NCBI RefSeq assembly: GCF_000143415.4
Contig: NW_003314367.1
Location: forward strand, 310,001-374,000
From: Selaginella moellendorffii
Taxonomy: Eukaryota > Plantae > Lycopodiophyta
DNA length: 64,000 nucleotides
Direction of reading: 5' to 3'
The translations under genes and the position numbers were made by a program. Positions 331 through 58,302 of the stretch are shown one piece after another. The notes beneath the pieces are model-generated. The model searched no databases, had not been told where the DNA came from, and saw nothing but the letters and a program-made list of their open reading frames with translations. The first letter of the stretch is position 1, and every line of letters starts with the position of its first letter.

Positions 331-484
331 AGAAAGAAAAGCGGAGCAAGAACAACGGATTTCACTTCAACACATGCCTTGATTCATATATGGCTGTATA
401 TATATACAACTTCAATCAAATCGGAAATCACCAGAGATTTGATCACGATTCAGACTGCTTGTCGTGTTCATCATTATTCCTACA
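331..484 (-). repeat. Copia 3' LTR (154 bp, TG...CT)
   Basis: Matches 27795-27948 with 7 transitions by manual count. Preceded on the minus strand by the PPT CTTGAAGGGGGAG. Confidence 0.95.
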
Positions 485-489
485 CTCCC

Positions 490-3147: not shown

Positions 3148-4998
3148 TGTAAGCGACTAATTTTTCCATTCTACTTTAGTCACTTAACCACACCTCCGAC
3201 CACTTGGAAGAGTCTCATTCACAACCTCCATAAGTCCAACTCAGGACTTGGGGCTTGGTAGCCCCGAGAATGGCATCCATGCCACTCAACCTTAGCACGT
3301 GGTCCAAGTGCTCCACGTGTCCGATCCCATGATCGACACCCTAAGGTACCACCGACGTATCGGCCTGTTACGCTAAGGCCATGCCCATTTACCTTGGTCA
3401 CACTGGTGGTCCAACACCACCTGCATTCCAATCCTCTCTCCAAGACTGAGTCATCCGTCCATGAGTGATCATCCTAGATCCACTCCTTAACATCCTTAAG
3501 ATGCCTACAGACATGGGGAATAGCCTTCCCCAATAACTCTGTTCCGGTCCCCACCAAGTCCCTTTCTGTCCTTGGCTATGTTCGCCAACACTGCCACTGG
3601 ATCAAGGCCCACCGGCCCGACCACTAAGTCCCACTATCCTCTAGGACTTCCTCACCATGTGACCGTATCCTTGGTCACTACATTAGAGGCCTACTTCTCT
3701 TCCCTTTCACCGTTTGGGACTTTGGGACAACATTTCGGAACACCGTGGCCTTACGCAAGCCTCATGGGTACTCTCCCCGCCTTTCGCCTTTAGGTGCTCT
3801 AGCCATGAGCTTAGAGCGAGGTTCCGTTGAGCCACGACAGGTATCCAAGTAGGTAGTGCCACCCACACTTGGACTGGGAGCATCGGCCAGTCGATCTCCC
3901 GGGGGGTACTAGAGCCGGCTCTTGAACACTTCACCAAGCTACCCCGCTTGTCGGTCCGTGTTCACTCTAGTCTTGGACTTCCCAGTGGGCAGCTCATCAC
4001 CCAACACTGGGTCTGGCCTTCCTGGGCCCAACTGGCCTTTCCTGGCCAAACTGGCTCCACTGCAGTCCTCCCCCTACTATACTTTTGGAGCTCACCAAAC
4101 CCCCCAGGGTCTGGGAGACGAATGCTTTGGGCTTTCACCCTCTCAGACTCGAACTCGGACTCGGACTCGGACTCGGACTCGGACTCGGCCTCGGTCTCGG
4201 CCTCGGTCTCGGCCTCGGCCTCGGTCTCGGCCTCGGCCTCGGTCTCGGCCTCGGCCTCGGTCTCGGCCTCGGCCTCGGTCTCGGCCTCGGTCTCGGTCTT
4301 GGTCCCGGTCTCGGTCTCGGTCCCGGTCTCGGTCTCGGTCTCAGTCTCGACTTCGGACTCCATCTCGGACTCCATCTCGGACTCCATCTCGGACTCCATC
4401 TCAGACTCCATCTCGGGTCCATCTCGGACTCCAGCTCGGACTCCATCTCGGGTCCATCTCGGACTCCATCTCGGACTCCATCTCGGGTCCATCTCGGGTC
4501 CACCTCGGACTCCATCTCGGCGTCCATCTTGGACTCCATCTCGGGTCCATCTCGGGTCCACCTCGGGTCCACCTCGGACTGCATCTCGGACTCCACTTTG
4601 GACTCCAACTCGGGTCCATCTCGGACTCCATCTCGGACTCGAACTCGGGTCCATCTCGGATTCCACTTCGGACTCCAACTCGGGTCCATCTCGGACTCCA
4701 TCTCGGACTCCAACTCGGGTCCATCTCGGATTCCACTTCGGACTCCAACTCGAGTCCATCTCGGACACTTCTACGTATCATGTGTTGGTCCTTTTGGGTC
4801 CCTTTTTAGAGCCTCGCTTATTGCTCGCCTCATGCTCGTTCCTCGAGCACTTTGTTGGGAGTTCCACTCCCGCTCTTGACTTTTCAAGTCGGAGCTTTTG
4901 GTCCAAACGTGTTACGCTCGTTTGGCTCTCGTTTCAGCCACTACCACGTGGCACCCTTTCCGGCTCCACTTTGGGGCCTAGGGATTTTGTGTCTCACA
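3148..4998 (-). repeat. Element A 3' LTR (~1.85 kb)
   Basis: Plus-strand ends TGTAAG...CTCACA. Nearly identical to 9103-9954 and to the later pieces of the 5' LTR. Confidence 0.92.
4148..4765. repeat. LTR-internal tandem array: (CTCGGA/C/T)n hexamers followed by CTCGGACTCCAT / CTCGGGTCCAT 11-12-mers
   Basis: Directly visible. Equivalent arrays at ~17642-18245, ~18580-19262 and ~24610-25203, and a related array in the B LTRs (~10755-11010, ~17140-17392). Confidence 0.95.
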
Positions 4999-7900
4999 AC
5001 TCCACCACCCATCGACGAAGTTCGATGTCCTCATCGAACGGTAAACCATTTTGTAAAGTAATACTCACATGTGTTACCATTTCCATCCTTGGCACTTAGC
5101 CAATATTTGTCAATGGTTTGACATTGAAGGCTCACCATGCCTTTTTGCATATGCCTCAATGGTTTGACACCAAAGGCTCCCCATGCCTTGCCTATCCTCT
5201 AAGGAGGGTAGTCTCTCCAACTTAGAGACTGATTGGACCACATGTAGTGGTTCTTTCCTTTTATTGGTTTAGTTCTCGCTAAACCTCTTAGAGACCCTTC
5301 TCTAAGTCAATCCCACTACTCCTTCTCGAGTAGTCTCAATTTCCATCTATTGAATGTTTGCACCTTGGAACTTTTACTCTTTTGACTTTTGGAAGTCAAT
5401 TTCCTAGGTGTCTCCAACACCTTGCATTGCACAGATTGTGCAGCTCCACTTCCCTATCCTAGGAAGTTCATTACTTGAGGGCACCATCATCCTTTTTTCT
5501 ATTTCGTGCCACCTTGGGCACTAAGTTCCATTTATCACACTTTGTGCTAGGGTTGTCCATCGCCCTATCATTTGGCTACCTTACCGCTCCCTCCCTTGGA
5601 GCTTCCACTTTCGCCAAATCGGAGCAATTCGGAATCCATCCTTGGAAACACACTTCCTTTCCCACAATTTGTTAGCGTCCAACACATTAGTGTTCCTCGC
5701 CTAACTTTGTCACTTGGATTCCTTCCAAGGAATTCCACGGCCCTATCTTGGCCACTCATCTTTTGCTTCTATCCATTGATTGTTGCACCAAGCAACATCG
5801 AATCTCTACCTCCCTCCTTGAGGTGTTCTTTTGATTCCATAGCAAAGGCTTTGCTTTGCCAAGACTAGGGTGTTCACCCCTAGTAAGTCTCTTTTAGCAT
5901 CTTCTGCTGTGGGCTCTATCCTTGGCCCAACTTTGTGACCCTCTCATGGGTCTCTTTAGAGACTACTTTCCTTGGACACATTATGCCATCGCAATGACAT
6001 AGCTCATTTCCCTAAGGTGCTTTTCCCACTTGGTCACCTTGACCAAGCCACACCATCATCAATAGTTCAAATCATCACTTTGAACTAGGAACCTTATTCC
6101 TTAACCCAAACAAGGACCTTGTCCTTATTTAGCCACAAGATCATCTAGTGATCTCACCTTGGCACGTTAACAGGTTTGCCAATAGGTACTAAGTCTTCTA
6201 GACCTTTAACTTGTTAACTACGACCCCGGGGGCATCCCCCACACTTGGCGGTGCGCCCAAGCTAGCCCTTCCGGCCAAGGGTCCATAGCAACTGAGATTA
6301 GGTGTCCCCATCTCACTCACCACGTCCTTGGTGCCACTTGCACCAAAGCGTTCAAGTTAGATATGCCGAGCTTTCACACTAAGCAATCTAACCGTGCATC
6401 ACGACTCCGAGGCATCCCTCGCTTGGCGGTGTGCCCAAACCAGTCTCCCCACTGAGAGTCCATGACCACCGAAATATGAGTGTCCTCATATTCCAAACCA
6501 TCACCACGCCCTAGTGATTTGGGACTCGAACCTAAGCACTAGAGGGTCGGGACTCGAACCCAACCTCCGTATATGCATCTACGGACGGCATCACACAAGA
6601 TGCCTGGCGTGACTCCCCACGCCGGTGCACCAACTTATTTTTAAAGCGCGCTACAGATCACAGCTTAGGAACCTAGTTCCCCCACACTGCCAAGTCCTCT
6701 CACTTGACATATCTGTGATCATGCATGGGCTCCTCCATGTTTGGCCCCATGGGCCACCCTTTTTGAAGTTAGCACCTTCAACTAGGGTATTTATTCCCCC
6801 CAACTTGCCAATCTCACTTAGCAAGTCATCCGACCACCGTAACATGGTTCATGCATAAGCGTGGAAGTCCTTAACCATCAACTTTCGTTCAAAGCCCTCT
6901 CTTTGAACACTCGGGAACTACTTCCCTAACCTTGACAGCCTTGCCTCATGGCAAGCTTCAAGACCACGCTTCTGCTGCGCCACTCTGATTTCGCGCGTTC
7001 TATGAACCATTTACACTTGGCCTTTCTAGGTACTAAGCTACCTAGAATCGTCTTTGGGAACCTTGAAGGAACTCTGTCCCTTAGCTTGCTAAGGCTTCCC
7101 TTTTTGCAAGCTTTCCAATTGCCACATAGTCTAACATAGACAATTCCATATTTTAGACTCTCCATGGCATCACGGTTGCTAGCGGCAACACCCTCGAGCC
7201 CCCACTTAATTCTCCACTCCCAGCTGGCATAAATAACCTTGGTTATGCCCTTCGATTTCTATGGTTCAGTTCCATCCCAATACTACTTGCCTTTTGGCCC
7301 CATATGTTTCCTTTGGTTATTCTCCTCCAGACCAGGAGGATAGCTTTTGCACTTTCTATCATGCCTTAGCAAGTATTCTTAGGGATGTACCTACCCAATA
7401 GCCCAAGGAGTGGTTCCTCAATCCGGGTATGCTCACCTTATAATCCCACACACTGGGATTACATTGTTGCTTATGGGCCTTTACATGCCCATCAGTAGCC
7501 TTGCCAAAATTCCATTCTTGGCTTTGTCCAACTCGGGTAGACAGTCCTCTCCTGTCTCCGCTACCTCGGACATTTGGATAGCACCTTCTATCCATCATTC
7601 GTTAGGGACTTAGTCCCTTGGGCTTTATCCATTGCCCTCGCGACATCAAACACCACCTTCTAGTGTTTTAGAGTGTTCGGGTGTCCCAATGATGGCTTTC
7701 TTGACAATGAGTATTTCCTTTTATGATATTGACTTACTATATCGCAACACAAGCAACTTATCCCCCGTAAGGGTGTATCCGACTTCCCTATGCTATTAAG
7801 AAGTCTTGGGTAGCTACCTTCTACCCGTTCAACCAGTTATTTTGCACATTTTGCTTAGTTGCCTCATAGTTGTCAAGTCCTACAACTCATTGTTTGGTGC

Positions 7901-9954
7901 TTTCACACCTCCATCATTATCTGGGTCACCACACTCCAATTGCATGCTCTGCAGCTTAGGCTATGCCATTCCCATTTCCATTGGGATTCCTTTGGCAAGG
8001 AGTTCTCATGAACCCACCAACATAGCCTCAAGGTATCACACCTTGGCACATTTGGTGTCTCCACACCATCGGCTCCACAAGCCTACCTCTATGACACTTC
8101 CCCTTCGTGTTTATGTCTTTGCCAAGACCAACACCGCTCTTTCTCATGCCAACCATCCGTTAGCACTGCACCATAGAAGTCACACACAACTTTGTGTCAA
8201 AGTTGTTTTCTTCTGAGAACACCTTTCCCATAACTTTAGCATGGCACATTTTGTCATCGATGAGATACCCTCTGTTTTCATCCTTGGATCCTATGATCCC
8301 CCCCCCCATCCTTTGTGGGGTACAACACACCTCAGTCCAAATGCTTCCATCAGTCCTTTTAGGACCATCCCTTGACTCTACTTGAGTCATCAACAGTTTT
8401 GGACTTGGTTAATCCATAGACCCTTAAAGTCCTACTTGTGAGGCACTAGCTCACTGGAATACACTTCTGGCATTCCTGTCCTACTCAAAAGGACTATTTT
8501 CACAAGTGTTACTCCGACACTTGATTTTGTTCTCTGGGGGCAACTTTTGCCCCTTAGGACTTGCGATGAGAATACCACTCATCTCTAAGTACACCCCCCA
8601 ACTCCTTGGGTTGTTCCAGCATTTATTAAAGGTAGCCCCGGCTACCATTTCAAGGACTTGAGTCCTCTTCCGTATTTGACCTCCCACGGTCATTACCTCT
8701 GGTCTCACATTCATGACCACCAACCTCAACTATATGAGGATAATCTTGTGACTCCTTTATTGTTTTGGAGTCTCTATCTTTCCCGTGATCCCAACTTTAG
8801 TTGTTTACCACAACAACCTTAGCCAATTTGCTGAGACAAATGCTCATCCGGATCACATCCTCAACTCAATGAGGAAAACCTTGCACTGTTCCCAAGATCC
8901 CAAAGTCGTTCCATTATTGGCCCTTTTCTATCCACCACCTTATCTACAAGTTCACACATGAACTGTAATGGAGAGCCATGTCTTCCCGACTTGCTACTCC
9001 TCAAGGATAGGCCCACTCCTCGGACCTTCCGATGCCAACACTAGTGGTGATATACTTGAGCACCAATAAAAGTCGGACTAAGGAACAGCCCTGATACCAA
9101 ATTGTAAGCAACTAATTTTTCCATTCTACTTTAGTCACTTAACCAAACCTCCGACCACTTGGAGGAGTCTCATTCACAACCTCCATAAGTCCAACTCAGG
9201 ACTTGGGGCTTGGTAGCCCCGAGAATGGCATCCATGCCACTCAACCTTAGCATGTGCTCCAAGTGCTCCACGTGTCCGATCCCATGATTGACACCCTAAG
9301 GTACCACCGACGTATCGGCCTGTTACGCTAAGGCCATGCCCATTTACCTTGGTCACACTGGTGGTCCAACACCACCTGCATTCCAATCCTCTCTCCAAGA
9401 CTGAGTCATCCGTCCATGAGTGATCATCCCAGATCCACTCCTTAACATCCTTAGGATGCCTACAGACATGGGGAATAGCCTTCCCCAATAACTCTGTTCC
9501 AGTCCCCACCAAGTCCCTTTCTGTCCTTGGCTATGTTCGCCAACACTGCCACTGGATCAAGGCCCACCGGCCCGACCACTAAGTCCCACTATCCTCTAGG
9601 ACTTCCTCACCATATGACCGTATCCTTGGTCACTACATTAGAGGCCTACTCCTCTTCCCTTTCACCGTTTGGGACTTTGGGACAACATTTCGGAACACCG
9701 TGGCCTTATGCAAGCCTCATGGGTACTCTCCCCGCCTTTCGCCTTTAGGTGCTCTAGCCATGAGCTTAGAGCGAGGTTCCGTTGAGCCACGACAGGTATC
9801 CAAGTAGGTAGTGCCACCCACACTTGGACTGGGAGCATCGGCCAGTCGATCTCCCGGGGGGGGTACTAGAGCCGGCTCTTGAACACTTCACCAAGCTACC
9901 CCGCTTGTCGGTCCGTGTTCACTCTAGTCTTGGACTTCCCAGTGGGCAGCTCAT

Positions 9955-11102
9955 TGTAAGCCACAAATTTTTCCTTTCCAATTTGCCAGCTTACCTCGTC
10001 TATCCGTCCAACACTGCCTTGGCTTTTGCTAAGTTCCCTTGCCAAGGTTATCGCCTATGGTACCAGCTCCTACTTGGTTTCAGCTACTCACTGCACGAGC
10101 AATGGAGCGTTAGCCATCCTTCCACGGATTCCCAAATCACTCCCAATCCCCCTCCCCGGGTTAGACTGGACTTAAGGTTCGGCTACACTCCCCACAAGCA
10201 CAAGTAGCCAAGCACACCAAGCTTCCAGGTTCCTAACATCCCTTGGTACCACAAGACTTGATCATGGGACCCTCTAAATCCCAAGTCTTGAGTGCAACAC
10301 TTGCTTCGGGACGCCGGGGCGAAACACCGTGGCCTAACGGCCCGGCATGGGTACCTCTCGCCCCCCACTTCCATCCCGAAGGAAGGCCCAAGCCCCTAGG
10401 AAGGGCGAGGACCAATGAGCCGCATGGTACTCAAGTGGGGCACCACTCCACATGAGCCGAGAGCACCGCAATCGGTTTCCCTTTCGGGAGTGGGAGCTGC
10501 TCTTGAGCACTTCCTTGGATGGCCCCTCCGGCACCAACCAAGTCCATGCTCACTCCCACCCAAGGCCCCTCGGTCCCAGTCCCAACCTCAAGTCAGTTTG
10601 GGAGCCCCACTGGAGAGTCCCTTCTAAACTGGTTCCTGGACCTCACTATCCCTACTATACTTTTGGAACCCCCTGCAGCCCCCCCCCCCTGGGGGACGCA
10701 CGCTTTGGGCTTTCACCCCTTGACCCGTATTAGTATTTGGACTTAGTCTCTGGCTCGATCTCGGATCCGATTTCAGATCCGACTTCGGATTCGGTCTCGG
10801 ACTCGATCGCGGACTCGATCTCGGACCCGATCTCGGGCCCGACCTCGGACTCGACTTCGGACTCGGTCTCGGACCCGATTTCGGATCTCGGACTTCGTCT
10901 CGAACTCGGTCTCGAACTCGGACTCGAACTCGGTCCCCGAGTCGGTCTTGGACTCGATTCCGGACTCTATCTCGAACTCGGTCCTAGAGTCGGTCTTGGA
11001 CTCGATCTTTGACTTGGTCCCATCCGATGAACTTTTTGTCATTTTGGTCATGCTTTCGGGGTTCCCTTAGCCTACGACACCTCGGCGAGTTGGTTCCTTA
11101 CA
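9955..11102 (-). repeat. Element B 3' LTR
   Basis: TGTAAG...CTTACA; about 99% identical to 16338-17486 by eye. Confidence 0.95.
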
Positions 11103-11505
11103 ACTCCACCACCCATAGAAGAAGTTCGATGCCCACATCGAACGTCTCTTTTTTATCCTACGACTTGTTGACCATGTCTCCGGGGGCATCCCCCCACTTA
11201 GCGGTGTGCCTAAGTTAGCCTCCCCGGCCAAGAGCTCATGACAACGGAATATAGGTGTCCCTATACTCCACCCCTCACCACGCCCTAGTATGGGGTCGGG
11301 ACTTGAACCCAGCCTTGCTTTACTAGGGGGTTGGGACTCAAACCCAACCTCCGTAGAATACGTCTACGGATTCGACATCCCCGCAGGGAGTCGGGCGTAG
11401 CTCCCTACGCCTGGTCGACCTAGCTAACCCATGCTAATTAGCTTACCTTCGGCGTGCCTTCGGGTCCCAACATATGCCATTGCTCAACTTCTCAAATTGA
11501 TACTT

Positions 11506-14500
11506 TTAATTGAACTTTGCATAAGTACATAGAGTTCTGCCATGCAGAAATTCCTCCACTAGATCTCGCGCGTTCGCTAGGTTCTCCTCCGGTTCCCATG
11601 TTGCTTCGCAGTGTGGAAATCCTTTCCACTTCACATGGAACTCTCTCACCTCACGTCCTTGTCGCTTGCTCTTGCGCGCATTGAGGATGGCCTCGACTTC
11701 GTATTCCTCCTCCCCTTGGATAACCTTAGGTAAAGGTCTTACTTGGTCCTTGCGAAGCGGATCCTCAAAATACGGCTTGAGTAAGTTCACGTGGAACACG
11801 GGATGCATCTTCCCCATCTCTCGAGGAAGTCGGAGACGGTAAGCCACTTTACCGATTCGAGCCTCAATCTCGTAAGGCCCCGCGAACCTGCTTAAGGAAC
11901 TCAAGATCAATTCATTTACAGGAATACATGCATTTTTACCTTTGGGTCAACTTCCGGCTGATCCCACTTGGTAGCCTGAGGTTCTTGGTGTTCAGCCACA
12001 CCTTCTCCCCAGCTTGGAACTCCACATCTCGACGCTTTTGGTTCGCGTACTTAGTTTGCCTTTGTTGAGCCCGTTCCAAGGAATCCCTCACTAGATTCCA
12101 AATGTTGAGTCTTTCCGCCGTGAATGCCTCCACTACGGGTAACTCTCCATGATACTCGGCCACGCCGAGTTCCACAGGACCTTCAATAGCTCGCCCATTG
12201 ATGACTTCCCATGGACTCACCCCGATGCTCGAATGTGGTGAGTTGTTATAACACATTTCCGCAAGTCCCAAATGACTTACCCAGTCGGTCTGGTCTCCCG
12301 AGACATAGCATCGCAAATAATCCTCCAGTTGCCTATTCACCCTTTCTGTTTGTCCGTCTGTCAAGAAGTGTTAGTGCCATCAATCTTGACTCAATACCCA
12401 TTACCTGTCTGTGGGTGATAGGCCGTGCTGAATTTCAACTTGGTGCGATACTGTTCTAGGAGTGTCCTCCAGAACCTACTGGTGAAGATCTTATCTTGAT
12501 CTGAGATAATCTCTTCCGGCCTTCCCCGCACTCGAACCACTTGTTCGAAGAACAGCTTCGCCACACCTTCCGCATCCACATCCGTTGTGGTGGGTATGAA
12601 ATGTGCCATCTTTGAAAATCGGTCCACCACCACGAATATCGCATCGAACCCCTCGCTTGGGGGTAGTCCCGTGATGAAGTCCATCGTGAGACATTTCCAC
12701 GGACGATCTGGAATGGGGATGCTTTGCAACAAGCCCCCACTAGCCTTCGTCACGGCTTTGACCTGCTGACATGTTGGGCATGTCTTTACATAGTCTTGGA
12801 CGTCCTTAGCCATATCTGGCCAGTGATACTTCCTTTTGAGTAAGCCCATCGTCTTGGGCACTCCGCCGTGTCCCGCGAGAGGTCCGTCATGACACTCTTC
12901 CAAGGCTACCTTCCTTAGTTCCCCTTCTGGAACATACACCCTCGTTTGCTTGTAATATATGAGTCCGTTGCGTTCCACATAGCCCGTTTTCTCTTCCGTT
13001 GGCAGCTCACCTCTCTGGTGAGCTTCCCGCGCCTCCAGATTCCTCAGCAACACTTCTTGTGCTAGACCATCACTCTCGTATGCGGTCCGCACATCGTCCC
13101 AAAAGGTTGTTGTCGCGCTAGATATCGCCAACTTCAAGCTCGCTTTTCGACTTAGCGCATCTGCCACGATGTTGCTCTTCCCAGGCTTGTACAGGATCTC
13201 GCAATCAAACTCCGCCAAAGCATTGGCCCACCGACCTTGTTTTCCCCTTAGGTCGGGCTGTGACAAGAAGTGTTTCGTTGCCACATTGTCCGTGTAAACC
13301 TTGAAGTGTCTCCCAAGGTAGTGTCGCCACTCCTTGAGCGCCTTGACCACCGCAAACAATTCCTTCTCGTGGGCAGGCCACTTCCGTTGAGCCTTGTCCA
13401 GTTTCTTCGAGAAGAACGCTACTGGATGGTTGTCTTGCTTCAAAACTGCGCCCAACGCAAAGTCCGAAGCATCCGTGTCTACCTCAAAGTCCTTACCAAA
13501 GTCTGGTAATGCCAACACCGGAGCCTTCCTCAACTTCCCTTTGAGGTGGACGAATGCCGCCTCGCATTCCGCTATCCATACCATCTTCCCTTTTCCTGTT
13601 TGGTCCGTTAAGGGCAGGGCTACTCTCGAATAGTGTCTGATAAACTTTCGATAGTAGTTGCATAGCCCCAGGAACGCCCTCAACTCATGTACATTCAATG
13701 GTCGTTCCCATTCCTGGATCGCTTGGACCTTCTCCGGGTCCACCTTGAGCCCGTCCTGGCCCACCACATGCCCGAGAAACTTTACCTCTTGTTGAGCAAA
13801 GTCACATTTGCTCTCTTTAGCATACAGTTTGTGTTCCCTTAGTTTCTCAAACACCTTCGCCAAGTGTTCGGCATGCTCCTCTAGCGTCTCGCTATAGATC
13901 AGGATGTCGTCAATATAGACGACCACGAAGCGATCCAGATAGGGTACAAAGATGTGGTTCATCAATGCCGAAAACGTTGCCGGCGCATTGCACAGCCCAA
14001 AGGGCATCACCAAAAACTCAAAGCTCCCATACCTCGTTCGACAGGTTGTCTTCTCGACATCTTCCTCAGCTACCCTGATCTGGTAGTATCCTGACCTTAG
14101 GTCAATCCTCGAGAAGTATTTTGCCTTTCCCAACCTATCGAACAGGTCCTCGATCCTTGGCAAAGGGTACTTGTTCTTCTTGGTATACTTGTTGAGCAAC
14201 CGGTAGTCTATGCACATGCGCATAGATCCATCTTTCTTTTTCACAAATAGCACCGGTGCCCCATACGGCGACTTGCTCAACCTAACATACCCTTTGCCCA
14301 CCAACTCTTCTAGTTGGCTCTTGAGCTCCTTGAGTTCTTTTTCATTCAATCGATAGGGTGGACGAACCACCGCCTCAGCACCCTCGACCAGCTCAATCTT
14401 ATGTTCTATCGGTCGTGCGGGGGGCAACCCCGCCGGTAGCTCCTCTGGCATGGTATCCTGGAATTGGTCCAGCACCTGCTGGATCACTAAAGGTACTTCT

Positions 14501-16278
14501 TCCGTTCTTGTCTTTTTGTCACTCTTCACCGAGAGTAAGCACAAAAAGGCTGCCTTAGTTCCTTTAGTGAGTTGTCCTCTCGTGGACACCAGGTTTAAGC
14601 ATGACTCTTTGGCCTTGCTTTGCCCTACCTTTAGATCCTGGGCCTCCACCCTAGATCTTCTTCCTTGGGCATTCGCCAATACCACAAGGTTCGTACCTTG
14701 TCCATGTAGGGCTACCACGAACCGATTAAACCAATCCATTCCGAAGATCACGTCAAATCCCGCCATGTCCAAGACGGTGAAATCCATGTCCACTTTCCAT
14801 GTCCCCACTTCGACTCTCGCTTGTCGAAGTACCTCATCGGTGCTTTGGCTACCTTGAACAAACTCTATAGTCCTTGGTTCGCCTAGCCGCTGCACCGTTA
14901 GTCCGGCTTGCCGGACTATGTCTGCAGCCACAAAATTATCCGAAGCACCCGTGTCAATAAGGATCTTAACAAAGCTACCTCCGAGCTTCCCTCGGAGGGC
15001 TAGTAGATGTCGCGAACGACTCTCTACCAAAGTTGCTCGTGTAATGAGTAACTTTGAGTTAGGGACTGGATCACATACCTCAGTTTGGACTTCACCCGAC
15101 TTGATGGCCATATTGGCTCTGGCCTTCTTCGGGTAGGGACATTCCCTCGAGAAGTGTCCCGCTTCGCCGCAGTTGTAGCATATGTTGTTGCCCACGCTGC
15201 TATACGACTTGACCTTCTTATCCGTGGGTTTGTCTTTTTTCGCTTGACTTCCCCACGTACTCGCTCGCTGGCCACCGGATTTGCTTTTCCGGAACCCCGA
15301 GGACTCATTCTTAAAGAAACTCTTCTTGAATTTCCCCTTGCTATATGTTCCCCTCGGTTTGGCCCCTTTGTGAAACGTGGATCCCGACCCCGTCGTGTTC
15401 CCCTTTCGCAGGTTATCGTTGAAATGCACCTTGATGGCCGCATCCAACGCTTCCTTGTAGTTGGTCGGGTTCCAGCGCATCACCTCACCGCGAGCCCAGG
15501 TTTGCAAACCTGATATAAAGGCATGGAACGTATCCATATCCCCCATGTCCGTGACAAGTATCCTCTTTGCCATGAACCCATTCACATATTCCTGGATGGT
15601 TCCAGTTTGCTTCAGCCTACTCAACTCATCTCTCAGATGCAGAGTGGCATTCGGAGGAACGTATGTCGCGCGGATCCTCGCCTTCATCATGTCCCAGGTG
15701 GCCACCGGTCCTTCGTTGGCCTCCGTTGTTCTCCACCAAGACTTGGCATTATCTGCCAAGTATGGTTTTGCACATGGGACCTTCTCCGAGCTCGGTAACC
15801 GCAACGCTCGGAAGTAGTCCTCCATATCGTAAAACCAATCCTCCACAACCTTATAGTCGTTCACTCCCTTGAACACCGGTGGGGGCTTTGGTTTGTACTT
15901 GGGAACTGCCTGAGGGACTGATTCCACTTCGGTCTGTTCGACCTTGTCTGGTTTTGCCTCAGTCCCTGCCGAAGGGTCCGCACCTTCTGCGCTGCCAGCA
16001 TCCGCAGTCTTTCGCTTTTTCTTCCGCTTCTCGTCACGCTTTAACTTGCGTACGAGAGTCTCCAGCAGGGCATTGGTCTGTGCCAACTGTCCTTCTAGGA
16101 CGTCCAATCGAGCCTTGGACGACCAAACCTCGCCACCGGACTCCTGTTTGGAAGTTTCCTCACTGGAGTCCTCCTCATGCAAGGATTCCTCATCCATAGC
16201 CTCTTGTTCAACCGGAGGCTCCAGCTCCGGCGGAGGTTCCGTCTCCGCCTGGGTTCGCTTACGCCCTGCCCTTGCCAT
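11506..16278 (-). CDS. Gag-Pol polyprotein (Gag-CCHC, PR, RT, RNase H, IN, chromodomain); predicted exons 16278-12405, 12357-11940, 11887-11506, giving 1557 aa
   Basis: Motifs [43 protein letters not shown] zinc finger, MDF..SDQD..TERVN, FAGPY, and chromodomain YEVEAIL...VKWKGF...ATWEPEENL. The three exons total 4674 nt, i.e. 1558 codons including the stop. Confidence 0.9.
11888..11939 (-). other. Predicted 52-nt GT-AG intron just before the GPY/F motif
   Basis: AAG|GTAAAAATG...TTCCTTAAGCAG|GT, AT-rich. Removal restores KLTQRFAGPY. Confidence 0.85.
12358..12404 (-). other. Predicted 47-nt GT-AG intron in the integrase core
   Basis: CAG|GTAATGG...CACTAACACTTCTTGACAG|AC, with a CTAAC branch site. 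Removal restores the conserved [12 protein letters not shown]. Confidence 0.85.
15024..15078 (-). other. Candidate 55-nt alternatively retained intron between the Gag zinc knuckle and the protease
   Basis: GAG|GTATGT...CCTAAC...TTTGGTAG|AG. The frame stays open if it is retained. Splicing gives ...QTE-RVVRDIY-stop (TAG at 15002-15000). Confidence 0.5.
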
Positions 16279-16337
16279 CTCCCAACAATCCGCCTCTATC
16301 CTTCGCTAGAACTGAGATAAAGGCTCCGATACCAAAT

Positions 16338-17486
16338 TGTAAGCCACAAATTTTTCCTTTCCAATTTGCCAGCTTACCTCATCTATCCGTCCAACACTGC
16401 CTTGGCTTTTGCTAAGTTCCCTTGCCAAGGTTATCGCCTATGGTACCAGCTCCTACTTGGTTTCAGCTACTCACTGCACGAGCAATGGAGCGTTAGCCAT
16501 CCTTCCACGGATTCCCAAATCACTCCCAATCCCCCTCCCCGGGTTAGACTGGACTTAAGGTTCGGCTACACTCCCCACAAGCACAAGCAGCCAAGCACAC
16601 CAAGCTTCCAGGTTCCTAACATCCCTTGGTACCACAAGACTTGATCATGGGACCCTCTAAATCCCAAGTCTTGAGTGCAACACTTGCTTCGGGACGCCGG
16701 GGCGAAACACCGTGGCCTAACGGCCCGGCATGGGTACCTCTCGCCCCCCACTTCCATCCCGAAGGAAGGCCCAAGCCCCTAGGAAGGGCGAGGACCAATG
16801 AGCCGCATGGTACTCAAGTGGGGCACCATTCCACATGAGCCGGGAGCACCGCAATCGGTTTCCCTTTCGGGAGTGGGAGCTGCTCTTGAGCACTTCCTTG
16901 GATGGCCCCTCCGGCACCAACCAAGTCCATGCTCACTCCCACCCAAGGCCCCTCGGTCCCAGTCCCAACCTCAAGTCAGTTTGGGAGCCCCACTGGAGAG
17001 TCCCTTCTAAACTGGTTCCTGGACCTCACTATCCCTACTATACTTTTGGAACCCCCTGCAGCCCCCCCCCCCCTGGGGGACGCACGCTTTTGGCTTTCAC
17101 CCCTTGACCCGTATTAGTATTTGGACTTAGTCTCTGGCTCGATCTCGGATCCGATTTCGGATCCGACTTCGGATTCGGTCTCGGACTCGATCGCGGAATC
17201 GATCTCGGACCCGATCTCGGGCCCGACCTCGGACTCGACTTCGGACTCGGTCTCGGACCCGATTTCGGATCTCGGACTCCGTCTCGAACTCGGTCTCGAA
17301 CTCGGACTCGAACTCGGTCCCCGAGTCGGTCTTGGACTCGATTCCGGACTCTATCTCGAACCCGGTCCTAGAGTCGGTCTTGGACTCGATCTTTGACTTG
17401 GTCCCATCCGATGAACTCTTTGTCATTTTGGTCATGCTTTCGGGGTTCCCTTAGCCTACGACACCTCGGCGAGTTGGTTCCTTACA
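16338..17486 (-). repeat. Element B 5' LTR
   Basis: Lies 3 nt from the tRNA-iMet PBS and matches 9955-11102. Confidence 0.95.
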
Positions 17487-18297
17487 CTCATCACCCAACA
17501 CTGGGTCCGGCCTTCCTGGGCCAAACTAGCCTTTCCTGGCCAAACTGGCTCCACTGCAGTCCTCCCCCTACTATACTTTTGGAGCTCACCAAACCCCCCA
17601 GGGTCTGGGAGATGAACGCTTTGGGCTTTCACCCTCTCAGACTCGAACTCGGACTCAGACTCGGACTCGGACTCGGACTCTGCCTCGGTCTCAGCCTCGG
17701 CCTCGGTCTCGGCCTCGGCCTCGGTCTCGGTCTCGGTCCCGGTCTCGGTCTCGTCTCGGTCCCGGTCTCGGTCTCGGTCTCAATCTCGGTCTCGACTTCG
17801 GACTCCATCTCGGGTCCATCTCGGACTCCATCTCGGGTCCATCTCGGACTCCATCTCGGACTCCATCTCGGACTCCATCTCGGGTCCATCTCGGACTCCA
17901 TCTTGGACTCCATCTCGGGTCCATCTCGGGTCCACCTCGGACTCCATCTCGGACTCCATCTCGGACTCCATCTCGGGTCCATCTCGGGTCCATCTCGGGT
18001 CCACCTCGGACTCCATCTCGGACTCCATCTTGGACTCCATCTCGGACTCCATCTCGGGTCCATCTCGGGTCCACCTCGGACTTCATCTTGGACTCCACTT
18101 CGGACTCCAACTCGGGTCCATCTCGGACTCCATCTCGGACTCAAACTCGGGTCCATCTCGGATTCCACTTGGGACTCCAACTCGGGTCCATCTCGGACTC
18201 CATCTCGGACTCCAACTCGGGTCCATCTCGGATTCCACTTCGGACACTTCCTCGTGTCATGTGTGGGTCCTTTTGGGTCCCTTTTTGGAGCCCCTCG

Positions 18298-21200
18298 TGA
18301 GACCCAACACCGATACGCCCCGAAGTGGATCNNNNNNNNNNNNNNNNNNNNNNNNNNNNNNNNNNNNNNNNNNNNNNNNNNNNNNNNNNNNNNNNNNNNN
18401 NNNNNNNNNNNNNNNNNNNNNNNNNNNNNNNACACGTGAGGCCCAACAAGCTCCGACTTGAAACGTCAAGAGCGGGAGTGGAACTCCCAACGAAGTGCTC
18501 GAGGAACGAGCACGAAGCGAGCAAAAGGCGAGGCTCCAAAAAGGGACCCAAAAGGACCAACACATGACACGTGGGAGTGTCCGAGATGGACTCGAGTTGG
18601 AGTCCGAAGTGGAGTCCGAGATGGACCCGAGTTGGAGTCCGAAGTGGAGTCCGAGATGGACCCGAGTTGGAGTCCAAAGTGGAGTCCGAGATGGACCCGA
18701 GTTGGAGTCCGAAGTGGAGTCCGAGATGGACCCGAGATGGAGTCCGAGATGGAGTCCGAAGTGGAGTCCGAGGTGGACCCGAGATGGACCCGAGTTGGAG
18801 TCCGAAGTGGAGTCCGAGATGGACCCGAGATGGAGTCCGAGATGGAGTCCGAGATGGAGTCCGAGGTGGACCCGAGATGGACCCACAATGGAGTCCGAGA
18901 TGGAGTCCGAGATGGACCCGAGATGGACCCGAGTTGGAGTCCGAAGTGGAGTCCGAGATGGACCCGAGATGGAGTCCGAGATGGAGTCCGAGATGGAGTC
19001 CGAGGTGGACCCGAGATGGACCCACAATGGAGTCCGAGATGGAGTCCGAGATGGACCCGAGATGGACCCGAGATGGAGTCCGAGATGGAGTCCGAGATGG
19101 AGTCCGAAGTCGAGACCGAGACCGGGACCGAGACCGAGACCGAGACCGAGATCGGGACCGAGACCGAGATCGAGGCCGAGGCCGAGACCGAGCCCGAGCC
19201 CGAGTCCGAGTCTGAATCCGAGTCCGAGTCCGAGTCCGAGTCCGAGTCCGAGTCCGAGTCCGGAGCCTGAGAGGGTGAAAGCCCAAAGCGTTCGTCTCCC
19301 AGACCCTGGGGGGTTTGGTGAGCTCCAAAAGTATAGTAGGGGGGAGGACTGCAGTGGAGCCAGTTTGGCCAGGAAAGGCCAGTTTGGCCCAGGAAGGCCG
19401 GACCCAGTGTTGGGTGATGAGCTGCCCACTGGGAAGTCCAAGACTAGAGTGAACACAGACCGACAAGCGGGGTAGCTTGGTGAAGTGTTCAAGAGCCGGC
19501 TCTAGTTCCCCCGGGAGATCGACTGGCCAATGCTCCCAGTCCAAGTGTGGGTGGCACTACCTACTTGGATACCTGGTGTGGCTCAACGGAACCCGCTCTA
19601 AGCCCATGGCTAGAGCACCCAAGGGCAGAAGGCGAGGAGAGTACCCAGGTGGCTCGCGTAAGGCCACGGTGTTCCGAAATGTTGTCCCAAAGGCCCAGAC
19701 TGTGGAAAGGAAGAGGAGCAGTCCTCTGGGGTAGTGACCAAGGACACAGTCGTGTGGTGAGGAAGTCCCAGAGGACCGTGGGACTTAGTGGTCGGGCCTG
19801 TGGGTCTCGATCCAGTGGCAGTGTTGGCAAACACGGCCAGGGGCAGAAAGGGACTTAGTGGGGACTGATAGAGGGATATTGGGGAAGGCTAATCCCCTTG
19901 TCGGTGGGCATCCTAAGGATGCTAAGGAGTGGATCTGAGATGACCACTCACGGATGGTTTGCCTAGTCTTGGAGAGCCAAGACGGTGATGCAAGTGGTAT
20001 TGGACTACTAGTGTGGCAAAGGTGATTGGGCATGGCCTTAGCGTAACGGGCTGCTATGTCGGTGGTACCTTTGAGTGTCGGTCATGGGATCGGACACGTG
20101 GAGCGCTTGGACCAAGTGCAAATGTTGAGTGGCATGGATGCCATTCTCGGGGCTAGCAAGTCCCAAGTCCTAGATTGGACTTATGGAGGTTGTGAATGAG
20201 ACTCCTCCAAGTGGTCAGAGGTGTGGTTAAGTGACCAAAGTAGAATGGAAAATTTAGTCGCTTACAACTTGGTATCGGAGCTGTTCCTTAGTCCGACTTT
20301 TATTGGTGCTCAAGTATATCACCACTGGTGTTGGCAACGGAAGGTCCGAGAAGTGGGCCTATCCTTGAGGAGTAGCAGGTCGGGAAGATATGGCTCTCCA
20401 TTACAGTTCATGTGTGAACTTGTAGACAAGGTGGTGGATAGAAAAGGGCCAATAATGGAACGACTTTGGGATCTTGGGAACAGTATATGGTTTTCCTCAA
20501 AGAGTTGAGGATGTGATCCAGATGAGCGTTCGACTTAGCAAACTGGCTAATGTAGTTGTGGTAAACAACTACAGTTGGGATCACGGGAAAGATAAAGACT
20601 CCAAAGCAATAAAGGAGTCACAAGATTTTCCTCATATAGTTGAGGTTGGTGCTCATGAATGTGAGACTAGAAGTAATGACCGTGGGAGGTCAAATACGGA
20701 AGAGGACTCAAGTCCTTGAAAAGGTAGCCGGGGCTACCTTTAATAAATGCTGGAACAACCCAAGGAGTTGGGGGTGTATTAAGTGGATGAGTTAGTGTTC
20801 TCATCACATGGACAAGTAGTCCTAAGGGGCAAAGGTTGCCCCCAGAGAACAAAATCAAGTGTCAGAGTAACACTTGTGAAAATAGTCCTTTTGAGTAGGA
20901 CAGGAATGCAAGAAGTGTATTTCAGTGAGCTAGTGCCTCACAAGTAGGACCTTACGGGTCTGTGGATTAACCAAGTCCAAAACGGCTGTATGACTCAAGT
21001 AGAGTCAACGGATGGTCCTGAAAGGACTGATGGAAGCATTTGGACTGAGGTGTGTTGTACCCCACAAAGGATGGGGGGGGATCATAGGATCCAAGGATGA
21101 GAACAGAGGGTATCTCATCGATGGCAAAATGTGCCATGCTAAAGTTATGGGAAAGGTGTTCCCAGAAGAAAACAACTTTGACATAAAGTTGTGTGTGACC

Positions 21201-24200
21201 TCTATTGTGCAGTGCTAACGGATGGTTGGCATGAGAAAGAGCGGTGTTGGTCTTGGCAAAGACTTAGACACGAAGGGGAAATGTCATAGAGGTAGGCTCG
21301 TGGAGCCGATGGTGTGGAAACACCAAATGTGCCAAGGTGTGATACCTTGAGGCTATGCTGGTGGGTTCATGAGAACCCCTTGCCAAAGGAATCCCAATGG
21401 AAATGGGAATAACATAGCCTAAGCTGCAGAGCATGCAGTTGGAGTGTGGTGACCCAGATAATGATGGAGGTGTGAAAGCACCAAACAATGAGTTGTAGGA
21501 CTTGACAACTATGAGGCAACTAAGCAAAAGGTGCAAAATAACTGGTTAAACGGGTAGAAGGTAGCTACCCAAGACTTCTTAATAGCATAGGGAAGTTGGA
21601 TATACCCTTACGGGGGATAAGTTGCTTGTGTTGCGATATAGTAAGTCAATATTATAAAAGGAAATACTCATTGTCAAGAAAGCCATCATTGGGACACCCG
21701 AACACTCTAGAACACCAGAAGGTGGTGTTTGATGTCGCGAGGGCAATGGATAAAGCCCAAGGGACTAAGTCCCTAGCGAATGATAGATAGAAGGTGCTAT
21801 CCAAATGTCCAAGGTTGCGGAGACAGGAGAGGACTGTCTACCCGAGTTGGACAAAGCCAAAAATGGAATTTTGGCAAGGCTACTGATGGGCATGTAAAGG
21901 CCCATAAGCAACAATGTAATCCCAGTGTGTGGGATTATAAGGTGAGCATACCCGGATTGAGGAACCACTCCCTAGGCTATTGGGTAGGTTCATCCCTAAG
22001 AATACTTGCTAAAGCATGATAAAAAGTGCAAAGCTATCCTCCTGGTCTGGAGGAGAATGACCAAAGGAAAGGTGTGAAGCCAAAAAGCAAGAAGTAAGGG
22101 GATAGAACCGAACCGTAGGAATCAAAGGGCATAACCAAGGTTGGTTATGCCAGCTGGGAGTGGAAAATCAAGTGGGGGCTCGAGGGTGTTGCCGCTAGCA
22201 ACCGTGATGCCATGGAGAGTCTAAAATATGGAATTGTCCATGTTAGACTATGTGGCATTTGGAAGGCTTGCAAAAAGGGAGGCCTTAGCAAGCTAAGGGA
22301 CAGAGTTCCTTCAAGGTTCCCAAAGACGATTCTAGGTAGCTTAGTACCTAGAAAGGCCAAGTGTAAATGGTTCATAGAACGCGCGAAATCAGAGTGGCGC
22401 AGCAGAAGCGTGGTCTTGAAGCTTGCTATGAGGCAAGGTTATCAAGGTTAGGGAAGTAGTTCCCGAGTGTTCAAAGAGAGGGCTTTGAACGAAAGTCGAT
22501 GGTCAAGGACTTTCACGCTTATGCAGGAACCATGTTACAGTGGTCGGAGGACTTGCCAAGCGAGATTGGCACGTCGGGGAAACAAATACCCTAGTTGAAG
22601 GTGATAACTTCAAAAAGGGTGGGCCATGGGGCCGAGCATGGAGGAGTCCATGCATGATCACAGACATGTCAAGTGAGAGGACTTGGCAGTGTGGAGGAAC
22701 TAGGTTCCTAAGCTGTGATCTGTAGCGCGCTTTAAAAATAAATTGGTGCACCGGCATGGGGAGTCACGCCAGGCATCTTGTGTGATGCCGTCCGTAGATG
22801 CATATACGGAGGTTGGGTTCGAGTCCCGACCCTTTAGTGCTTGGGTTTGAGTCCCAAATCACTAGGGCGTGGTGATGGTTTGGAATATGAGGACACTCAT
22901 ATTTCGGTGGTCATGGACTCTCAATGGGGAGACTGGTTTGGGCACACCGCCAAGCGAGGGATGCCTCGGAGTCGTGATGCACGGTTAGATTGCTTAGTGT
23001 GAAAGCTCAGCATATCTAACTTGAATGCTTTGGTGCAAGTGGCACCAAGGTCGTGGTGAGTGAGATGGGGACACCTAATCTCAGTTGCTATGAACCCTTG
23101 GCCGTAAGGGCTGGCTTGGGTGCACCGCCAAGTGTGGGGGATGCCCCCGGGGCTATAGTCAACAACTTGGAGGTCTAGAAGACCAAGTACCTCTTGGCAA
23201 CTCTGTTAAGGTGCCAAGGTGAGATCACTAGGTGATCTTATGGCCAGATATAGGCAAGGTCCTTGGTTGGCTAAGGAATGAAGTTCCTAGTTCAAAATGT
23301 TGAAATTGAACTGTTTAAGGTGGTGTGGCTTGGTCGTGATGACCAAGTGGGAAGAGCACCTAAGGGAAATAAACTATGTCCGTGCGATGGCATAGTGAGT
23401 CCGAGGAAAGTAGTCTCTATAAAAGACCCATGGGAGGGTCACGAAGTTGGGCCGTGGGTAGAGCCCATAGCAGAAGATGCTAAAGAGACGTACTAGGGGT
23501 GAACATCCTCCGGACTTGGCAAAGAAGAGTCTTTGCTATGGAACCGAAATAATACCTCAAGGAGGGAGGTAGAGATTCGATGTTGCTTGGTGCAACAATC
23601 AACGGATAGGAGCAAAGGACTAGTGGCCAAGTTTGGGCCATGGAATTTAATGAAAGGGATCCAAATGGCAAAGTTAGCCAAGGAACACTAATGTGTTCGA
23701 TGCTAACAGCTTGTGGGAAAGGAAGTGGACTTCCAAGGATGGATTCCTAAGTGCTCCAATTTAGCGAAGTAAAAGCTCCAAGTGAGGGAGCGGTAAGGTA
23801 GCCAAATAATAGGGCCATGGACAGCCCTAGCACAAAGTATGATAAATGGAACTTAGTGCCCAAGGTGGCACGAAATAGAAGAGAGGATGATGGTGCCCTC
23901 AAGTAATGAACTTCCTAGGATGGGGAAGTGGAGTTGCACAATCTGTGCAATGCAAGGTGTTGGAGACACCTAGGAAATTGACTTCCAGAAGTCAAAGAGT
24001 AAAAGTTCCAAGGTGCAAACGTTCCATAGATGGAAATTGAGACTACTCGAGAAGGAGTAGTGGGATTGACTTAGAGAAGGGTCTCTAAGAGGTTTAGCGA
24101 GAACTAAACCAATAAAAGGAGAGAACCACTACATGTGGTCCAATCAGTCTCTAAGTTGGAGAGACTACCCTCCTTAGAGGGTGGGCAAGGCATGGTGAGC

Positions 24201-25061
24201 CTTCAATGTTAAACCATTGACGAATACGGAGAAGGCATGGTGAGCCTTCAATGCCAGACCATTGACAAATATTGGCTAGGTGCCAAGGATGGAAATGGTA
24301 ACACTTGCGGGTGTTACTTTATAAAGTGGTTTACCGTTCGATGAGGACATCGAACTTCGTCTATGGGTGGTGGAGTTGTGAGACACAAAATCCCTAAGCC
24401 CCAAAGTGGAGCCGGAAGGGCGCCACATGGTAGTGGCCGAAGCGAGAGCCAAACGAGCGTAACACATTTGGACCAAAAGCTCCGACTTGAAAAGTCAAGA
24501 GCGGGAGTGGAACTCCCAACGAAGTGCTCGAGGAACGAGCACGAAGCGAGCAAAAGGCGAGGCTCCAAAAAGGGACCCAAAAGGACCAACACATGACACG
24601 TGGGAGTGTCCGAGATGGACTCGAGTTGGAGTCCGAAGTGGAGTCCGAGATGGACCCGAGTTGGAGTCCGAAGTGGAGTCCGAGATGGACCCGAGTTGGA
24701 GTCCAAAGTGGAGTCCGAGATGGACCCGAGTTGGAGTCCGAAGTGGAGTCCGAGATGGACCCGAGATGGAGTCCGAGATGGAGTCCGAAGTGGAGTCTGA
24801 GGTGGACCCGAGATGGACCCGAGTTGGAGTCCGAAGTGGAGTCCGAGATGGACCCGAGATGGAGTCCGAGATGGAGTCTGAGATGGAGTCCGAGGTGGAC
24901 CCGAGATGGACCCACAATGGAGTCCGAGATGGAGTCCGAGATGGACCCGAGATGGAGTCCGAGATGGAGTCCGAGATGGACCCGAGATGGACCCGAGATG
25001 GACCCGAGATGGAGTCCGAGATGGAGTCCGAGATGGAGTCCGAAGTCGAGACCGAGACCGG

Positions 25062-25093
<32 letters not shown>

Positions 25094-26208: not shown

Positions 26209-26400
26209 CCTCGCTTATTGCTCGCTTCGTGCTCGTTCCTCGAGCACTTTGTTGGGAGTTCCACTCCCGCTCTTGACTTTTCAAGTCGGAGCTTTTGGTC
26301 CAAACGTGTTACGCTCGTTTGGCTCTCGCTTCAGCCACTACCACGTGGCACCCTTTCCGGCTCCACTTTGGGGCCTAGGGATTTTGTGTCTCACATAGAC

Positions 26401-28950: not shown

Positions 28951-29057
28951 CGATCTTATACAGCGCTAGCCTACAGCTTCTATCTAAACTGGTTTTGCGA
29001 CATCCATATCAACAATCCGGCTTGTTTCGTCGGTGCTCGTCTTCTTCTTCGGTTTCT

Positions 29058-54090: not shown

Positions 54091-54153
54091 TGAAATCGTT
54101 TGCAAAAGTTTCTCTTTGTTAGGGACTAATATGATATTCACATTTCTAAGTTT

Positions 54154-56930: not shown

Positions 56931-56982
56931 ATTATTAACCGCGCGCGACTTTAGGTTTAACACATTTTAGGGGTTGGCGGCT

Positions 56983-58233: not shown

Positions 58234-58302
58234 AAACTTAGAAATGTGAATATCATATTAGTCCCTCATCAAAGCAACAAAGACAAACTTTTGCAAACTA
58301 TT

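What the first reader, a model, noticed from the sequence alone, without database searches (positions are those of the whole stretch)
11888..12404. Young gypsy chromovirus whose integrase requires removal of two spliceosomal introns
Seen: the pol ORF of element B is broken twice, by 47 nt (GTAATG...CTAAC...CAG) and 52 nt (GTAAAA...AAGCAG). Each break has exact GT/AG ends at an AG|G proto-splice site. Removing both restores [12 protein letters not shown] and KLTQRFAGPY and gives one 1557-aa frame with no other stop or frameshift. The LTRs are about 99% identical and the TSD is perfect. Known: retrotransposition of spliced RNA erases introns, so LTR-element pol genes are normally intronless. Described splicing cases (Drosophila copia, Arabidopsis EVD, Ogre) lie at or remove the gag/pol boundary rather than sitting inside integrase. 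Inference: the element packages unspliced RNA but makes integrase only from spliced mRNA. Unspliced RNA terminates before the catalytic Glu of D,D35E. Retaining only the second intron would give an integrase lacking the GPY/F and chromodomain parts. Host splicing would thus control integration and targeting. I cannot verify whether this has already been published.
Basis: partly seen in the sequence, partly recalled or inferred. Interest (0 to 1): 0.93.

Follow-up and report, generated by a model that had tools for sequence, protein, structure and literature searches.

The report
Jumping gene keeps four spliced introns
A high-copy spikemoss jumping gene carries four introns that are cut out of its RNA yet kept in its DNA copies; two split the enzyme that inserts it, and one removes the site where copying starts, which likely explains why the introns are never lost.

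Summary
Confirmed and extended. The element is a young Ty3/gypsy chromovirus of Selaginella moellendorffii matching SM1-Galahad (PMC3350952), published as a 1295-aa ORF plus two stray ORFs with 'no intact copy'; the words intron and splic- do not occur in that text. Both integrase introns (47, 52 nt) are skipped exactly in one RNA-type contig. Family-wide DNA keeps them, and 14 of 17 variants in the two downstream exons are synonymous. The reads revealed two more GT-AG introns. A 157-nt one removes the protease motif and leaves a 401-aa Gag (two studies). A 66-nt one removes the end of the 5' LTR and the whole primer-binding site (two studies). Best model: unspliced RNA is the only template for copying but cannot encode a working integrase, while spliced mRNA makes the proteins but cannot be primed. 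Not shown: linkage of the splices on single molecules, a Gag-Pol mRNA, or what is packaged. Most junctions rest on contigs of runs only guessed to be RNA. Ten literature searches found no such layout. The scan noted other intron-bearing retroelements before, not this one.

The parts
9955..17486 (-). Element B, full-length Ty3/gypsy chromovirus (SM1-Galahad by descriptors), inserted in the right LTR of non-coding element A
   Evidence: PMC3350952 section 2.1
16338..17486 (-). 5' LTR, TGT...ACA, with poly-G tract and TATA-like site at 17042
9955..11102 (-). 3' LTR, 10 mismatches to the 5' LTR
9950..9954 (+). Target-site duplication CTCAT, left copy
17487..17491 (+). Target-site duplication CTCAT, right copy
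16312..16377 (-). Intron 0 (new), 66 nt, GTAAGC...CTCAG: last 40 nt of the 5' LTR including the terminal CA, plus the whole PBS
   Evidence: loose ends at 16313 in contigs of X15 (110 nt) and X18 (43 nt) continue with the LTR sequence just upstream of the donor; ends read
16322..16334 (-). Primer-binding site, tRNA-Met type, inside intron 0
   Evidence: a tRNA-Met PBS is given for SM1-Galahad; the match to initiator tRNA is recalled
12405..16278 (-). gag-pol exon 1: Gag, CCHC knuckle, protease, RT, RNase H, integrase zinc finger and most of the core
   Evidence: Pfam hits
14922..15078 (-). Intron G (new), 157 nt, GTATGT...GCAG, facultative: removal deletes the protease DTG motif and ends Gag at 401 aa, one codon after the junction
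   Evidence: joint 14921/15079 in X15 and X17
12358..12404 (-). Intron 1, 47 nt, in the integrase core before the catalytic Glu; holds the in-frame stop (TGA here, TAA in most family DNA)
   Evidence: joint in X15; variant 12392
11940..12357 (-). Exon 2: catalytic Glu and C-terminal part of integrase
11888..11939 (-). Intron 2, 52 nt, just before the GPY motif
   Evidence: joint in X15
11506..11887 (-). Exon 3: GPY/F (SH3_Tf2-1) region and group I chromodomain, stop codon
   Evidence: Pfam Chromo 1.7e-16 and SH3_Tf2-1 2.1e-15
11170..11480 (-). 3' UTR array of short hairpins shared with non-coding elements A and C; candidate packaging or export signal (inferred)
   Evidence: z -4.5; 72-76% match to A and C; 8 of 80 pairs compensatory in 3 sequences
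11104..11114 (-). Polypurine tract

Best explanation
This spikemoss retrotransposon has four GT-AG introns that are removed from its RNA and kept in its DNA copies, and it likely uses them to split its RNA into a copied but integrase-dead genome and translated but uncopyable messages. SHOWN: the four introns exist; each junction appears in RNA-type contigs; family DNA retains the integrase introns; the exons behind them evolve as protein. INFERRED step 1: removing intron 0 deletes the primer-binding site and LTR end, so spliced mRNA cannot start reverse transcription. INFERRED step 2: removing intron G gives a Gag-only mRNA and keeping it gives Gag-Pol, which sets the Gag excess without a frameshift. 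INFERRED step 3: Gag-Pol mRNA must lose introns 1 and 2 to encode the D,D35E Glu, the GPY/F region and the chromodomain. INFERRED step 4: splicing is close to all-or-none, so RNA that keeps the PBS also keeps introns 1 and 2, and every new copy inherits all four introns.
For:: X15 contig 1 (2,500 nt, depth 11.2) skips 47 and 52 nt at the predicted ends. X15 and X17 skip the 157-nt intron. X15 and X18 join the LTR donor to the acceptor behind the PBS. All 3 of 3 X15 contigs laid are intron-free and tile 11559-16313; one X22 raw read covers 12329, 12347 and 12424 but not 12392, with 104+47 nt in the two bins, which fits a read spliced over intron 1 (my inference; not a listed joint). DNA run X1 has even depth across both introns, and none of the 15 joints shown (of 44) is at an intron; 14 of 17 listed variants in exons 2-3 are synonymous against 28% expected (p=5e-6); a stop falls one codon after the intron G junction; the published family consensus has the same 3885-bp ORF and 309-bp ORF3, so the breaks are family-wide in a second genome data set; 189 of 269 relatives read straight through the intron-1 site and none of the 14 irregular ones breaks there (66 lacked the motif), so the introns were gained in this lineage.
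Against: No single molecule links the four sites. X15's tiled contigs, if one RNA, encode only Gag, so a Gag-Pol mRNA (G kept, 1 and 2 removed) was not seen. Integrase joints are listed in only 1 of 4 contig runs (X15). X17 runs through intron 1 without a gap and about 14 nt into intron 2 while splicing intron G; this is mixed splicing or DNA carry-over, and mixed splicing counts against all-or-none. X18 has part of intron 2 in a chimeric contig. X20 runs unspliced past the PBS and does not cover the integrase introns. The contig runs are only guessed to be RNA. The three recorded RNA runs gave 10, 2 and 0 reads and no listed joint. In X1, 29 of 44 joints were hidden and some were not counted, so rare intronless copies are not excluded. 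A co-packaged spliced RNA could still donate intronless sequence by template switching (established for retroelements; recalled).
Confidence: 0.7

Rival explanations
1. Integrase needs splicing, but the introns survive because Gag or an export factor selects unspliced RNA through a signal in or near an intron, as in retroviruses. The PBS intron is a by-product, not the lock.
For: Mixed forms in X17 suggest the introns are not strictly coupled. Cer1 exports unspliced RNA with a dedicated factor (PMC10309623 abstract). BARE keeps separate RNA pools by promoter use (PMC3735527 passages).
Against: Introns 1 and 2 are only 47 and 52 nt. The one structured element shared with the non-coding elements A and C lies in the 3' UTR, present in spliced and unspliced RNA alike. 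Intron 0 removes exactly the PBS in two studies.
Confidence: 0.15
2. The family is non-autonomous and moved by proteins of the single-ORF sister SM2-Galahad. The splices are incidental use of short-intron signals and the split integrase is vestigial.
For: SM2-Galahad has one intact 1577-aa ORF and hundreds of copies. No Gag-Pol mRNA was seen whole. Expression in the three recorded RNA runs is very low.
Against: 14 of 17 variants in exons 2-3 are synonymous. The frame is restored with no other lesion over 1557 aa. Intron G ends Gag one codon after the junction.
Confidence: 0.08
3. Retention of intron 2, or of both, is a regulated switch that yields short integrases lacking the chromodomain and so changes targeting.
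For: Keeping intron 2 gives a 1431-aa product with a complete core. Retained forms are seen in X17 and X18.
Against: No contig shows intron 1 removed with intron 2 kept. The retained forms may be genomic RNA or DNA.
Confidence: 0.05
4. The intron-free contigs come from intronless genomic copies rather than from splicing of expressed copies.
For: X15 is about 96% identical to B, is only guessed to be RNA, and is a different sample from X1.
Against: No such joint among the 15 best DNA joints at depth near 10^6. A copy lacking the PBS and LTR end could itself only come from a spliced RNA. One recorded-RNA read fits the same junction.
Confidence: 0.02

Closest known systems
SM1-Galahad of Selaginella moellendorffii (Novikov et al. 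2012, PMC3350952; abstract, section 2.1, passages and supplement search seen)
   Same: 7.5 kb, LTRs over 1 kb with poly-G, tRNA-Met PBS, ORF of 3885 bp / 1295 aa, downstream ORFs of 316 and 309 bp (here 318 and 309), group I chromodomain in ORF3, hundreds of copies
   Different: The paper reports no intact copy and reads the pieces as separate ORFs; 'intron' and 'splic' occur 0 times in its main text. Here the pieces are exons of one spliced gene, with two more introns.
Arabidopsis EVADE and barley BARE1 (Ty1/copia; PMC5580714 and PMC3735527, passages seen)
   Same: A facultative intron at the gag/protease border shifts the frame and gives a Gag-only mRNA, as intron G does
   Different: They are copia; their unspliced RNA encodes the whole Gag-Pol; no intron in integrase or over the PBS appears in the passages seen. 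PMC5580714 found no conserved splicing in Arabidopsis gypsy elements.
Ogre (Ty3/gypsy Tat clade; passages in PMC6317226 and PMC4408406)
   Same: A retained intron must be removed to translate the full polyprotein
   Different: One intron between two ORFs (Gag-PR and RT-RH-IN), not inside an enzyme domain; non-chromovirus
Foamy viruses (PMC7828637, passages seen)
   Same: Pol comes only from a spliced mRNA, separate from the genome
   Different: One large splice removes gag; there are no short introns inside pol. That their major donor lies upstream of the PBS is recalled, not seen in the passages.
Penelope-like elements (PMC8557442, passages seen)
   Same: Retroelements that keep introns; a 5'-UTR intron spans the boundary between terminal repeat and body
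   Different: Not LTR elements, no tRNA priming; the paper calls the significance of retention unknown
Engineered Ty1 helper without PBS and his3-AI reporter (PMC6844567, passages seen)
   Same: Shows that an RNA without PBS supplies proteins but is not copied, and that a sense intron is lost on transposition
   Different: Laboratory constructs; here splicing would make the PBS-less helper RNA naturally

Membership tests
Ty3/gypsy LTR retrotransposon | Domain order PR-RT-RH-IN between LTRs with TG...CA ends, PBS, PPT, 5-bp TSD | tested here: met
Chromovirus | Chromodomain at the integrase C-terminus | tested here: met
   Pfam Chromo 1.7e-16 in exon 3; joined to integrase only after splicing
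Galadriel/Galahad clade | RT-RH-IN phylogeny | not tested
   No tree built; best relatives only 40-56% identical; placement taken from PMC3350952
SM1-Galahad family | Host, size, LTR features, PBS and ORF lengths as published | tested here: met
   Host gene matches an S. moellendorffii protein; ORF1 3885 nt, ORF3 309 nt, about 7.53 kb
SM1-Galahad family | Over 80% nucleotide identity to the published consensus | not testable with these tools
   The consensus was not in the supplement text that could be read
U2 spliceosomal introns | GT-AG ends, host-like length and composition | tested here: met
   4 of 4
U2 spliceosomal introns | Exact removal in RNA, presence in DNA | tested here: met
   the contig runs are RNA by the tool's guess; introns 1 and 2 rest on one study plus one inferred read
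EVD/BARE1-type gag splicing | Intron removes protease start and stops Gag just after the junction | tested here: met
   works like it, but a different superfamily
EVD/BARE1-type gag splicing | Unspliced RNA encodes complete Gag-Pol | tested here: not met
   Unspliced frame stops at 1295 aa, before the catalytic Glu
Ogre | Single intron between Gag-PR and RT-RH-IN ORFs; non-chromovirus | tested here: not met
   Gag through most of IN is one ORF; chromodomain present

The most novel reading that the evidence does not exclude
An intron laid across the LTR end and primer-binding site acts as a template lock. It makes every spliced RNA uncopyable, frees this LTR retrotransposon from the rule that reverse transcription erases introns, and has let it gain ordinary host-type introns inside its integrase, giving a retroelement whose genomic RNA cannot encode its own integrase.
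Probability: 0.55. Interest if true: 0.9.

Novelty: new variant of a known kind. Interest (0 to 1): 0.82.

Why it matters
Intron loss during copying is the classic signature of LTR retrotransposition, and a 2025 review (PMC12786077, passages) says plant LTR elements generally lack introns apart from Ogre and EVADE. A young family with hundreds of copies and four introns, two inside integrase, breaks that expectation and offers a simple mechanism. It makes two open questions testable in one 7.5-kb unit: how a retroelement chooses which RNA to translate and which to copy, and how new spliceosomal introns arise and persist, with single-ORF SM2-Galahad as the control. It also warns that ORF-based surveys can label active families as having no intact copy.

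Tried and rejected
No whole genome is held, so copies with separate TSDs could not be counted. The metagenome scan found no relative. Protein searches found no close relative: best about 50% among 120 listed and 40-56% for most of 150 listed, so the age of the introns is open. No holder on record as RNA was listed. X24 gave 0 reads (no test) and X23 gave 2 partial reads that I could not interpret. The X18 joint 14871/14984 (CC..CG ends) was rejected as not a canonical intron. Rfam gave only three weak MIR2933 matches in LTR tandem repeats, far below the gathering score. Frameshifting or readthrough was rejected: both introns hold stops and change frame, and exact junctions exist. Private insertion in this copy was rejected. 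A fungal host was rejected. Elements A and C have no Gag-Pol match. PMC12477816, PMC7175516 and PMC2864245 (passages) held no precedent; PMC7175516 mentions a cryptic Tf2 intron tied to silencing. The look-alike search of earlier findings returned only an unrelated bacterial protein, and the same-genome search returned nothing.

Full report
OBSERVATION. On the minus strand, 12404-12358 (47 nt) and 11939-11888 (52 nt) have exact GT-AG ends. Removing both gives one 1557-aa Gag-Pol frame from ATG 16278; the unspliced frame stops at 1295 aa and retention of the second intron alone stops at 1431 aa. The first stop falls before the catalytic Glu: D1200, D1260 and E1296 can be read. Pfam places gag, CCHC, protease, RT, RNase H and the integrase zinc finger and core in exon 1, and the SH3_Tf2-1 and chromodomain in exon 3. 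The element spans 9955-17486 with TSD CTCAT and LTRs differing at 10 positions in about 1,150 (the script's outer ends were one base off). A random segment of this element has GT..AG ends with p=0.005.

HOST AND FAMILY. A neighbouring BRWD gene matches a Selaginella moellendorffii protein (84% with introns left in; near-identical exons). Three of its introns are 58, 81 and 59 nt. Novikov et al. 2012 (PMC3350952; I saw the abstract, section 2.1, passages and a search of the one supplement PDF) describe SM1-Galahad. It is 7.5 kb, with LTRs over 1 kb with poly-G, a tRNA-Met PBS, an ORF of 3885 bp / 1295 aa, further ORFs of 316 and 309 bp with the chromodomain in the last, hundreds of copies and no intact copy found. 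Element B gives 3885, 318 and 309 nt. The match is by descriptors, not by sequence. 'Intron' and 'splic' occur 0 times in that text. The sister family SM2-Galahad has a single 1577-aa ORF.

DNA KEEPS THE INTRONS. In DNA run X1 (59,562 contigs laid), depth is even across the element. The bin holding intron 2 has 1,019,176 against 1,081,452 and 972,587 beside it. A site inside intron 1 (12392) has 687,030 against 639,093-752,628 at nearby exon sites, and its majority variant turns TGA into TAA, still a stop. None of the 15 joints shown, of 44, is at an intron; the shown ones have depth 150-335. The tool hid 29 and warns that some were not counted, so rare intronless copies are not excluded. X1 may be the source sample, but the published consensus gives the same breaks independently.

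RNA REMOVES THEM. I laid 7 of the 9 RNA or RNA-guess runs listed. In one search, one X15 contig of 2,500 nt skips both introns at the predicted ends. That is 1 of 4 contig runs. X17 runs through intron 1 ungapped and, by its end distances, about 14 nt into intron 2. X18 carries 25 nt of intron 2 in a chimeric contig, and X20 does not cover the region. The three recorded RNA runs gave 10, 2 and 0 reads and no listed joint (threshold 3 reads). One X22 read covers 12329, 12347 and 12424 but not 12392, and its bin depths (104 + 47 nt) fit a read spliced over intron 1; this is my inference from the tables.

TWO MORE INTRONS. One search lists a 157-nt GT-AG skip (15078-14922) in X15 and X17, two studies. 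It removes the protease DTG motif and ends Gag at 401 aa, one codon after the junction. X17 also covers this intron. Contigs of X15 (110 nt) and X18 (43 nt) leave the stretch at 16313 and continue with LTR sequence lying just upstream of a GTAAGC donor at 16377. This defines a 66-nt intron holding the last 40 nt of the 5' LTR and the whole PBS. The junction is read from loose ends because my stretch stopped at 16330. X20 runs unspliced past this point. All 3 of 3 X15 contigs are intron-free. All four introns are U-richer and GC-poorer than their flanks.

THE SPLIT INTEGRASE IS UNDER SELECTION. Of the variants printed (40 rows each, of 193 and 195), 17 distinct ones fall in exons 2-3. Of these, 14 are synonymous in the spliced frame against 28% expected (p=5e-6) and none makes a stop. 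Among 269 related proteins, 189 read straight through the intron-1 site, 14 are irregular without breaking there and 66 lack the motif; 99 of 269 match a continuous motif over the intron-2 site. The introns were therefore most likely gained in this lineage (inference). No relative above about 56% identity was listed and the metagenome scan was empty, so their age is unknown.

MECHANISM. I commit to a three-RNA model (0.7). Unspliced RNA keeps the PBS and is the template but cannot encode a working integrase. RNA lacking introns 0, 1 and 2 but keeping G would make Gag-Pol. RNA also lacking G makes Gag. Loss of the PBS blocks priming of spliced RNA (established; the engineered Ty1 helper in PMC6844567, passages, rests on this). 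For introns 1 and 2 to persist, PBS-containing RNA must also keep them, which needs near all-or-none splicing or early capture of unspliced RNA; this is not shown, and X17's mixed pattern counts against it unless it is DNA carry-over. The Gag-Pol mRNA was not seen as one molecule. A hairpin array in the 3' UTR (z -4.5) is shared with the non-coding elements A and C. If it is the packaging signal, spliced RNA would be packaged too and PBS removal would be the needed safeguard; this is speculation on three sequences.

COMPARISON AND NOVELTY. Intron G works like the EVADE and BARE1 gag introns (PMC5580714, PMC3735527; passages) but in a gypsy element. Ogre needs splicing of one intron between ORFs (passages and section 9 of PMC6317226, passages of PMC4408406). 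Foamy virus Pol comes from spliced mRNA (PMC7828637, passages). Penelope-like elements keep introns, one across the repeat boundary (PMC8557442, passages). Cer1 needs a factor to export unspliced RNA (PMC10309623, abstract). A 2025 review names only Ogre and EVADE as notable intron-bearing plant LTR elements (PMC12786077, passages). Ten full-text searches returned no paper that, by listing or by the passages I read, reports introns inside an LTR-element integrase or an intron over the PBS; most hits were seen as listings only. The library lacks most subscription papers, and the REXdb tables of PMC6317226 were too large to read. Earlier scan notes list antisense intron-bearing genes in fungal elements and an intron in a recombinase retroelement, untested here, and not this layout.

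VERDICT. Real, family-wide and spliced; a known family whose gene structure was misread; a new variant of splicing-controlled retrotransposon expression. Interest 0.82. The template-lock reading has probability about 0.55 and would deserve 0.9.

Noticed in passing
window 3148-9954 plus 17487-18432 (A, minus) and 18432-26211 (C, plus): Two 91%-identical LTR elements of about 6.8-7.8 kb with no Gag-Pol match. They share LTR termini, PBS, PPT region and an AG just behind the PBS with B; likely non-autonomous passengers of the Galahad families. B inserted into A's LTR.
   Followed up: partly
window 11170-11480 (B), 6200-6640 (A), 22740-23173 (C): Array of short hairpins (z -4.5 and -5.6) conserved between B's 3' UTR and the interior of A and C, partly duplicated in A and C, with 8 of 80 pairs compensatory in only 3 sequences; candidate packaging or export signal, no Rfam match.
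   Followed up: partly
window 16313 (run X1 loose end): Some family DNA has a different sequence between PBS and leader but keeps a pyrimidine run and the AG at the same place as the intron 0 acceptor.
   Followed up: no
window 12358-12409 and 11886-11941: Intron 1 is flanked by a 5-nt direct repeat and intron 2 by a 4-nt one ('both' values), as expected if they arose as insertions with a short duplication.
   Followed up: no
window 480-2422 and 26375-27484: A broken Ty1/copia element hosts the nested A, B and C insertions.
   Followed up: no
window 43985-47571 and 60374-64000: Two 96%-identical copies of part of a BRWD/PHIP-like gene; also duplicated F-box and AAA ATPase genes (53215-59198), a Helitron (35866-39962) and a PPR fragment (28387-28965).
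   Followed up: partly
window 11915-12100 (run X18 record 12): A 1,599-nt contig of depth 64 ends in a fragment of the integrase region; probably a host transcript reading into a truncated copy.
   Followed up: no
window 18332-18431: A 100-N assembly gap between elements A and C.
   Followed up: no
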